A program made the position numbers and the translations under genes. Under the pieces are notes generated by a model that worked only from the letters and a program-made list of their open reading frames with translations, was not told the DNA's origin and searched no databases. DNA of 64,000 nucleotides from Antedon mediterranea (taxonomy: Eukaryota > Animalia > Echinodermata), in NCBI RefSeq assembly GCF_964355755.1, contig NC_092671.1, positions 29,890,104 through 29,954,103 on the forward strand, in the 5' to 3' direction. Shown one piece after another: positions 1,527-1,568 of this stretch (position 1 is its first letter; every line of letters starts with the position of its first letter).

Positions 1527-1568
<42 letters not shown>
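1527..1568 (+). other. Exact 42-bp duplicate of 28S 102-143 (helix 69 / R2 target upstream half) in the IGS
   Basis: AGCGCGGGTAAACGGCGGGAGTAACTATGACTCTCTTAAGGT. Also at 11019-11060, 20487-20528, 29978-30019, 39438-39479, 48937-48978 and 60566-60607. Confidence 0.97.

What the first reader, a model, noticed from the sequence alone, without database searches (positions are those of the whole stretch)
1527..1568. Every IGS carries a perfect 42-bp copy of the 28S R2/Pokey/homing-endonuclease target site, ending at the insertion point: a possible built-in decoy
Seen: IGS 1527-1568 is identical to 28S 102-143 and is unchanged in all 7 spacers, with no 28S-like flanks. It spans -41 to +1 relative to TTAAGG^TAGCC and then diverges (TAGAAATAAGGTTCG, then poly-T). 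Established: this 28S site is where R2 non-LTR retrotransposons insert. Bombyx R2 recognises mostly upstream DNA (a motif about -34 to -22 plus bases about -6 to +1). The same TTAA is the Pokey target, and the I-PpoI site CTCTCTTAAGGTAGC overlaps it. Inference: the copy covers the recognised upstream region almost exactly, at one copy per rDNA unit, so it could divert or titrate rDNA-specific elements into a harmless spacer. Alternatively it is a fixed scar of an R2 event, since R2 RNAs often carry upstream 28S sequence at their 5' end. All seven true 28S sites here are uninserted. Identity among spacers alone can be explained by concerted evolution.
Basis: partly seen in the sequence, partly recalled or inferred. 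Interest (0 to 1): 0.9.

Follow-up and report, generated by a model that had tools for sequence, protein, structure and literature searches.

The report
R2 landing-site copy in rDNA spacer
Every ribosomal DNA unit in this window carries, just past the 28S gene, an exact 42-base copy of the stretch that the R2 jumping gene's protein grips and cuts, and a distant relative carries several worn copies of the same stretch, so it likely serves as a spare, harmless docking site for R2, although no R2 element and no binding were shown here.

Summary
Confirmed: 7 of 7 spacers hold an exact copy of 28S positions -41 to +1 around the R2 nick. It lies 250-277 bp past the 28S end, on the sense strand, and is the only rRNA-derived piece in the spacer. 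It spans the roughly 40-bp upstream footprint of R2 proteins plus the nick motif, is longer than recorded R2 leaders (0-36 nt), and has no ribozyme or R2 body. New evidence: a distant relative (L002, 18S 92.8% identical) has six diverged spacer copies of the same segment on the opposite strand, ending at the second-strand nick. Their changes avoid the bases that A-lineage R2 reads (2 of 19, 7.4 expected). Best reading (0.45): an R2-made target copy, kept as a binding sink or harmless landing pad. A neutral relic fixed by concerted evolution is close behind (0.35). No R2 was found, no genome is held, and close relatives could not be tested. This scan noted similar spacer copies in two other animal genomes (unchecked). 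Nine literature searches found no report.

The parts
1527..1568 (+). Spacer copy of 28S positions -41..+1 around the R2 first-strand nick (unit 1); nick-equivalent between 1567 and 1568
1534..1546 (+). R2 upstream motif (RUM, -34..-22) inside the copy
   Evidence: definition from PMC10499050; identity to 28S
1562..1568 (+). R2 nick motif (RASIN, -6..+1) inside the copy, intact in 7 of 7 copies
1543..1561 (+). Helix-69 hairpin of the large rRNA inside the copy (name recalled); the stem forms in the RNA folds
1569..1583 (+). 15-nt right junction: repeats the copy's last bases 12 nt on, holds a 6-bp inverted copy of the left flank, and a 3-nt direct repeat brackets the copy (all found after the fact)
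1584..1611 (+). 28-nt T tract, likely part of the RNA polymerase I release region (inferred)
1476..1526 (+). Left flank, unrelated to 28S; present in an independent run at depth 784
1377..1475 (+). Perfect 9-bp tandem array, 11 copies (9-12 in other units)
102..143 (+). True 28S site, uninserted (also 9594, 19062, 28544, 38013, 47512, 59159)
11019..11060 (+). Spacer copy, unit 2
20487..20528 (+). Spacer copy, unit 3
29978..30019 (+). Spacer copy, unit 4
39438..39479 (+). Spacer copy, unit 5
48937..48978 (+). Spacer copy, unit 6
60566..60607 (+). Spacer copy, unit 7

Best explanation
Each spacer holds an exact copy of the 28S stretch that R2 retrotransposon proteins bind and nick, likely made by an R2-linked cut-and-repair or insertion event and likely kept because it would draw R2 protein to a place where binding or insertion leaves the 28S gene intact. 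Shown: one copy per unit, -41..+1, sense strand, ahead of a T tract, with no element body. From papers: R2 proteins grip up to 40 bp upstream of the nick; A-lineage DNA-binding domains bind only upstream; Bombyx R2 nicks and primes with the +6..+37 sequence replaced; bound R2Tg does not exchange its DNA. Inferred: the copy would bind, and probably be nicked by, the host lineage's R2. It then works either as a sink that ties up R2 complexes or as a landing pad. An R2 inserted there would lie in the sense direction ahead of the T tract and keep the 28S bases its ribozyme needs (-28 to -36), so it could still be transcribed while the rRNA gene survives. The copy would therefore be a safe site more than a trap.
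For: Both ends fall on R2 landmarks: a random 42-nt rRNA piece ends within 2 nt of the nick with p about 0.001 and covers -34..+1 with p about 0.0014. The left end matches the 40-bp footprint and exceeds recorded leaders of 0-36 nt. In L002 (18S 92.8% identical) six spacer copies match 29-34 of 42 bases. Of 793 tiles of its own 18S and 28S, only tiles over this site score 28 or more and the next best is 26. The copies begin at about -38 to -42 and end at -3, the second-strand nick. They lie on the opposite strand, which fits a DNA-level role. Of 19 distinct changes, 2 fall in the 14 positions read by A-lineage R2 or the nick motif (7.4 expected, p 0.007); changes cluster (scan p 0.0013); 4 of 6 L002 copies keep the nick motif. 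In 10 of 10 pairs the segments match 25-34 of 36 without gaps, while 15 of 20 flank pairs are at background. Two decayed L002 copies have lost the bases next to the nick. Echinoderms carry A- and D-lineage R2; that this animal is an echinoderm is recalled from its 18S, not tested.
Against: No R2 or remnant was found in 7 true sites, 7 copies or the L002 spacer, and no genome is held. The window copy is 100% identical to 28S, which a young neutral insertion also gives, and spacer variation has no power. The window's position is not shared: no copy in 699 bp (L002) or 705 bp (L003) after 28S (best 21 and 19 of 42), and the flanks are unrelated. The L002 copies were picked by ungapped likeness to 28S, so their length and identity are partly built in; one has a 3-nt insertion and two more have decayed. 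The contact set was chosen after the copies were seen and overlaps the hairpin stem (3 changes, 6.3 expected, p 0.08). CpG bases carry 7 of 19 changes (3.7 expected, p 0.06). No L002 copy keeps both the Bombyx core bases and the nick motif (0 of 6). One copy per unit could divert at most about half of the complexes, and a cleavable site should tend to be lost by repair while it is still rare (inference).
Confidence: 0.45

Rival explanations
1. Neutral relic: an R2 (or R2-mobilised RNA) with a 28S leader landed in the spacer, or a break at the R2 site was repaired with a captured 28S piece. The body was lost and concerted evolution spread the variant to all units.
For: R2 5' junctions often carry duplicated upstream 28S and templated additions (PMC3774820). 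R1 insertions outside 28S carry 7-28 bp of upstream 28S (PMC2718515). The right junction shows short direct and inverted repeats of nearby sequence (7-mer repeat p about 0.002, 6-bp inverted arm; after the fact). The copy has perfect identity and a position not shared with L002 or L003. This also explains ends at R2 nicks.
Against: The copy is longer than any recorded leader, even after discounting 1-2 chance matches. No ribozyme fold, P1 partner or coding remnant follows it. It does not explain why the L002 copies keep the segment in four flank contexts with clustered changes.
Confidence: 0.35
2. Host-factor site: the segment is kept as a binding site for a host DNA-binding protein, for example a Myb-type terminator or fork-barrier factor or a domesticated R2 DNA-binding domain, near the end of the transcription unit.
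For: The window copy lies 15 bp from a 28-nt T tract, 268 bp past 28S. The conserved -38..-30 block in L002 resembles the yeast Reb1 motif (recalled, not tested). An orientation-free, contact-like pattern of conservation fits any DNA-binding protein.
Against: It does not explain why both lineages' copies end at R2 nicks. In yeast and mouse terminators the T tract precedes the protein site (recalled), the reverse of the order here. The L002 copies lie 2-4.8 kb upstream of 18S, on the other strand.
Confidence: 0.1
3. RNA-level role: the 3' external spacer transcript carries a helix-69 mimic that acts in processing, pausing or as a sink for modification guides.
For: The copy is on the sense strand ahead of the T tract and folds the hairpin. 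A run guessed to be RNA holds the left flank (the RNA label is a guess).
Against: No fold beyond chance (z 0.76 and 0.18). The copy includes 16 nt upstream and 7 nt downstream of the hairpin. The L002 copies are antisense, and each of the 7 copies examined has one uncompensated break in the stem.
Confidence: 0.05
4. Domesticated break site: R2 nicks at the spacer copy start unequal sister exchange for rDNA copy-number recovery without cutting a 28S gene.
For: In Drosophila, R2 endonuclease breaks drive rDNA magnification (PMC10266012, passages). The copy keeps the nick motif.
Against: This is shown only in Drosophila, and a review suggests it may be specific to that group (PMC13580325). No data on breaks or copy number were obtained here.
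Confidence: 0.05

Closest known systems
Canonical R2 target in 28S rDNA (RUM -34..-22 and RASIN -6..+1; PMC10499050)
   Same: Identical from -41 to +1, with both motifs and their spacing intact.
   Different: Lies in the spacer and lacks the downstream half (+2 onward), which D-lineage DNA-binding domains also bind (PMC11204384); insertion there would not break 28S.
R2 5' junction duplications and 28S leaders; R1 insertions outside 28S that carry upstream 28S (PMC3774820, PMC2718515)
   Same: Upstream 28S sequence that ends at the cut and is joined to foreign sequence, with short templated additions.
   Different: 41-42 nt against 0-36; no element, ribozyme or tail attached; fixed once per unit in the spacer instead of sitting at an inserted 28S gene.
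[quoted passage not shown]
   Same: 28S-derived sequence taken up outside its normal place through R2 activity.
   Different: Those are parts of mobile elements; here the host spacer holds the piece, it is the upstream half, and no mobile body is seen.
Transposon remnants and repeats in rDNA spacers (bioRxiv 2023.02.20.529178; PMC10257491)
   Same: Foreign sequence fixed in all spacers by concerted evolution.
   Different: The fixed piece is the target of an element, not the element; the passages read do not mention such copies.
Pokey target in Daphnia 28S (PMC3849761)
   Same: The four-base piggyBac-type site and both preferred upstream bases are present.
   Different: 4 of 8 preferred downstream bases are lost; no Pokey is known or seen here.

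Membership tests
R2 target site (Bombyx rules) | Upstream motif at -34..-22 | tested here: met
   identical to 28S in 7 of 7 copies (definition)
R2 target site (Bombyx rules) | Nick motif -6..+1 at the right distance from the upstream motif | tested here: met
   7 of 7 copies; the +1 match could be chance (about 1 in 4)
R2 target site (Bombyx rules) | Downstream half-site bound by a second D-lineage subunit | tested here: not met
   +2..+5 all differ, and +6..+21 match at 5 of 16; dispensable for first-strand nicking and not bound by A-lineage domains
R2 target site (Bombyx rules) | Bound, nicked and used for priming by R2 protein | not testable with these tools
   needs biochemistry; joint change of +2..+5 was not seen tested in the passages read
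R2 5' end / off-target R2 insertion / SIDE | 28S leader of 0-36 nt | tested here: not met
   41-42 nt, or 39-40 after discounting chance matches; leaders of this lineage are unknown
R2 5' end / off-target R2 insertion / SIDE | HDV-like ribozyme after the leader | tested here: not met
   no ribozyme family at E up to 10; no Watson-Crick P1 partner for 12 start positions within 600 nt; Rfam models may miss R2 ribozymes with long loops
R2 5' end / off-target R2 insertion / SIDE | Element body (RT/endonuclease frame or 3' UTR with tail) | tested here: not met
   the frames over or right after the copy are 51-87 aa stop to stop and were not scanned against Pfam; a T tract and spacer repeats follow; no R2 of this lineage was on hand to compare UTRs
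Pokey target | Four-base site plus 10 preferred flanking bases | tested here: inconclusive
   site present; 6 of 10 preferred bases, counted by hand
   12 of 15; the last three bases differ
Selected decoy or landing pad | Conserved against diverging flanks in relatives | tested here: inconclusive
   seen among paralogous copies in a distant relative but with ascertainment bias; close relatives gave no cover on the flank (0 of 3 runs, may be false negatives)
Selected decoy or landing pad | R2 present in the lineage, and insertions or cut scars at the copy | not testable with these tools
   no genome held; none in 7 units; two decayed L002 copies lack nick-adjacent bases

The most novel reading that the evidence does not exclude
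Animal rDNA spacers have repeatedly evolved, or kept for hundreds of millions of years, built-in copies of the R2 protein's footprint. These act as host-encoded DNA decoys or safe landing pads: a cis-acting defence, or truce, against a site-specific retrotransposon, written into every unit of the array it attacks.
Probability: 0.3. Interest if true: 0.85.

Novelty: new variant of a known kind. Interest (0 to 1): 0.62.

Why it matters
R2 has persisted in animal rDNA for hundreds of millions of years although each insertion disables an rRNA gene. Known controls act on chromatin and RNA. A second target site per unit, placed in the spacer, would be a different kind of control: a DNA decoy or safe landing site that can be tested with existing R2 binding, nicking and priming assays and with long reads. 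The worn copies in L002 amount to a natural mutagenesis of the site and point to the bases the local protein reads. For R2-based gene insertion, a natural site in rDNA that leaves 28S intact would be a useful precedent. If neutral, the copies still record R2 cutting in lineages where the element has not been found.

Tried and rejected
Assembly artefact: rejected. The copy is in 7 of 7 units with fixed flanks, and the flank is in an independent run.

Special RNA structure: folds no better than shuffles. Ribozyme or known RNA family: none in the window spacer (E up to 10) or the L002 spacer (E up to 1, one microRNA-like chance hit). Coding remnant in L002: 19 of 32 frames were scanned against Pfam and gave one weak hit below cut-off.

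Decayed downstream half-site in the window: marginal, not claimed. Selection from variation among the 7 units: no power. L002 against L004: 1 event in 117 nt of copies against 8.8 expected (p 0.002), but 69 of 85 events lie in 400 bp of doubtful orthology, so the test is discounted. L004 has the same 18S as L002 over 1209 nt and is not independent.

Close relatives: runs of organisms B-E hold 0.63-0.82 of the sampled words, but 3 of 3 relative runs laid on the left flank gave no contig, which the tool says can be false. A scan of metagenome contigs with a 28S 3'-end 20-mer found 0. L001 and L003 hold only about 1.1-1.2 kb upstream of 18S, short of the 2.07 kb where the nearest L002 copy lies, so they are uninformative there. 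Whole-genome search for R2: no genome held. Look-ups in earlier findings by sequence or place found nothing.

Full report
Observation. The window is a tandem rDNA array of an animal, with six full 18S-5.8S-28S units and part of a seventh. Features of the 18S suggest an echinoderm; this is recalled and was not tested. Positions 1527-1568 equal 28S 102-143 at all 42 bases. The segment occurs 14 times: 7 true sites, all uninserted, and 7 spacer copies, all on the sense strand. Each copy starts 268 bp after the 28S end (250 and 277 in two units), after a 9-bp array and 51 bp of unique sequence, and 15 bp before a 28-nt T tract. It is the only rRNA-derived piece in the spacer (E 1e-18; next best 12 bp). 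Numbered from the R2 first-strand nick, it runs from -41 to +1. An independent run of the same organism holds the left flank at depth 784.

What the ends mean. A random 42-nt piece of the rRNA coding region would end within 2 nt of the nick with p about 0.001, so the piece is tied to this site. Bombyx R2 reads an upstream motif at -34..-22 and a nick motif at -6..+1, and nicks and primes normally with +6..+37 replaced (PMC10499050, passages). All 7 copies keep both motifs at the right spacing. R2 proteins of both lineages grip up to 40 bp upstream (PMC13486585, passages). A-lineage domains bind only upstream, and their ZF3-2 fragments need -40..-21, while D-lineage domains also bind downstream (PMC11204384, passages). 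The second-strand nick lies 2 bp upstream of the first (PMC12180492, passages). R2Tg, once bound, does not exchange its DNA, and its off-target sites match 28S at -25..-19 and near -9 (PMC12222951, passages). The copy is therefore close to the whole upstream footprint plus the nick motif.

Origin. R2 RNAs keep 0-36 nt of upstream 28S, mostly 28, and R2 5' junctions show duplications of upstream 28S and templated additions (PMC3774820, parts 1-4 of 7). R1 copies outside 28S carry 7-28 bp of upstream 28S (PMC2718515, passages). So an R2-linked origin has precedent. The copy is longer than those leaders, however, and nothing like a ribozyme or element body follows it. The right junction has a 7-nt direct repeat 12 nt on, a 6-bp inverted copy of the left flank and a 3-nt repeat around the copy. 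These look like break-repair marks but were found after the fact. A gapped likeness of the next 15 nt to 28S is marginal.

Relatives. No genome is held, and 3 of 3 runs of close relatives gave no cover on the left flank, which may be false. A scan of metagenome contigs with an 18S 20-mer gave four loci whose 18S is 92-93% identical to the window's. L002 holds six copies of the same segment in its spacer, on the strand opposite to the rRNA genes, matching 29-34 of 42 bases. L004, with the same 18S as L002, holds three. Of 793 tiles of L002's own 18S and 28S, only those over this site score 28 or more. The copies start at about -38 to -42 and stop at -3, at the second-strand nick. Over -38..-3 there are 19 distinct changes in 7 copies (five full L002 copies, the right part of the sixth, and one from L004). 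Two fall in the 14 positions read by A-lineage R2 or the nick motif (7.4 expected, p 0.007), and changes cluster at -29..-25 and -18..-14 (p 0.0013). The Bombyx key bases are not spared (3 seen, 3.7 expected). 4 of 6 L002 copies keep the nick motif, and each copy has one uncompensated break in the hairpin stem. Among five gap-free copies, all 10 pairs match at 25-34 of 36, while 15 of 20 flank pairs are at background. Two further copies have decayed and lack the bases next to the nick. Cautions: the copies were picked by ungapped likeness; the contact set was chosen after seeing them and overlaps the stem; CpG bases carry 7 of 19 changes; the copies share ancestry. Neither L002 (699 bp) nor L003 (705 bp) has a copy after 28S, and the window's flanks do not match L002. 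The two cases differ in place, number and strand, and may be independent.

Mechanism. The best reading (0.45) is an R2-made copy of the target that is kept as a spare site. Shown: its anatomy, its fixation in the window, and a second lineage with a contact-like pattern of conservation. Taken from papers: what R2 proteins bind and need. Inferred: that the local R2 binds it, that this spares 28S genes, and that selection keeps it. The copy lies in the sense direction ahead of the T tract and holds the 28S bases that form part of many R2 ribozymes, so an R2 inserted there could stay active. It would be a safe landing pad as much as a sink. Echinoderm R2 elements of both lineages are on record (PMC5035012, parts 2-3 of 5; PMC13188248, passages), but none was seen here. 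The neutral-relic reading (0.35) explains the ends equally well and needs only a young insertion, or an unusually long leader, plus concerted evolution. It explains the L002 pattern less well. A host-factor site (0.10), an RNA mimic (0.05) and a domesticated break site (0.05; PMC10266012, passages) are minor. Pokey fits poorly: 6 of 10 preferred bases (PMC3849761, passages). I-PpoI matches 12 of 15.

Novelty. Nine searches of the held library found no report of R2 target copies in spacers. One search (R2 element, intergenic spacer, decoy, 28S, retrotransposon) gave 0 papers, and 'decoy target' had 0 occurrences in the 20 listed of 424 papers. Passages of PMC13580325, PMC10257491, bioRxiv 2023.02.20.529178 and PMC2048585 do not mention such copies. 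No supplements were read, most subscription papers are not held, and junction alignments shown only as figures (for example echinoderm R2 ends in PMC5035012) could bear on the leader length. Earlier notes of this scan describe spacer copies of the R2 target in a fish and in another animal (e1-9176058, e1-7814042), and a spacer copy of another element's 28S target (e1-9964016). They are unchecked leads and fit both a recurring by-product and a recurring decoy.

Verdict. The feature is real, far from chance and R2-related. Its function is open, with a modest lean to a selected spare target after the L002 result. Novelty: new variant of a known kind. Interest 0.62; 0.85 if the decoy or landing-pad role holds.

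Noticed in passing
window 53785-55940 (ITS1 of the unit starting at 51928): A 2156-bp, 31% GC insert with a 4-bp target duplication, short inverted ends (CAC...GTG) and no frame over 61 aa. By recall it looks like a non-autonomous Chapaev/CMC-type DNA transposon. The same unit has two variant bases at the 28S 3' end.
   Followed up: partly
window 1640-3882 and equivalents: Seven spacer subrepeats per unit (at least eight in the last), separated by 5-bp microsatellites. The last one runs into the likely promoter near 4070-4090, as for spacer promoters (inferred). The 5-bp unit is the reverse complement of 28S +1..+5 at the R2 nick, probably by chance.
   Followed up: no
window 1584-1636, minus strand: Read on the minus strand, the T tract is an A tail with a polyadenylation-like hexamer about 10 nt before it, as at the 3' end of an antisense retroposed piece; 15 nt separate it from the copy and no element body follows.
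   Followed up: partly
L002 170-2895 (minus strand); L004 3277-3887: Six (L002) and three (L004) diverged copies of the R2 target segment inside spacer subrepeats, plus two decayed ones near L002 1305 and 720 that lack the nick-adjacent bases. These deserve a study of their own.
   Followed up: yes
window 60317-64000: The last spacer is longer than the other six (over 3684 bp without reaching the promoter, against 3239-3270), from extra subrepeats.
   Followed up: no
window 1255-1277: A short hairpin right at the 28S 3' end in the RNA fold, a candidate 3'-end processing signal (inferred).
   Followed up: no
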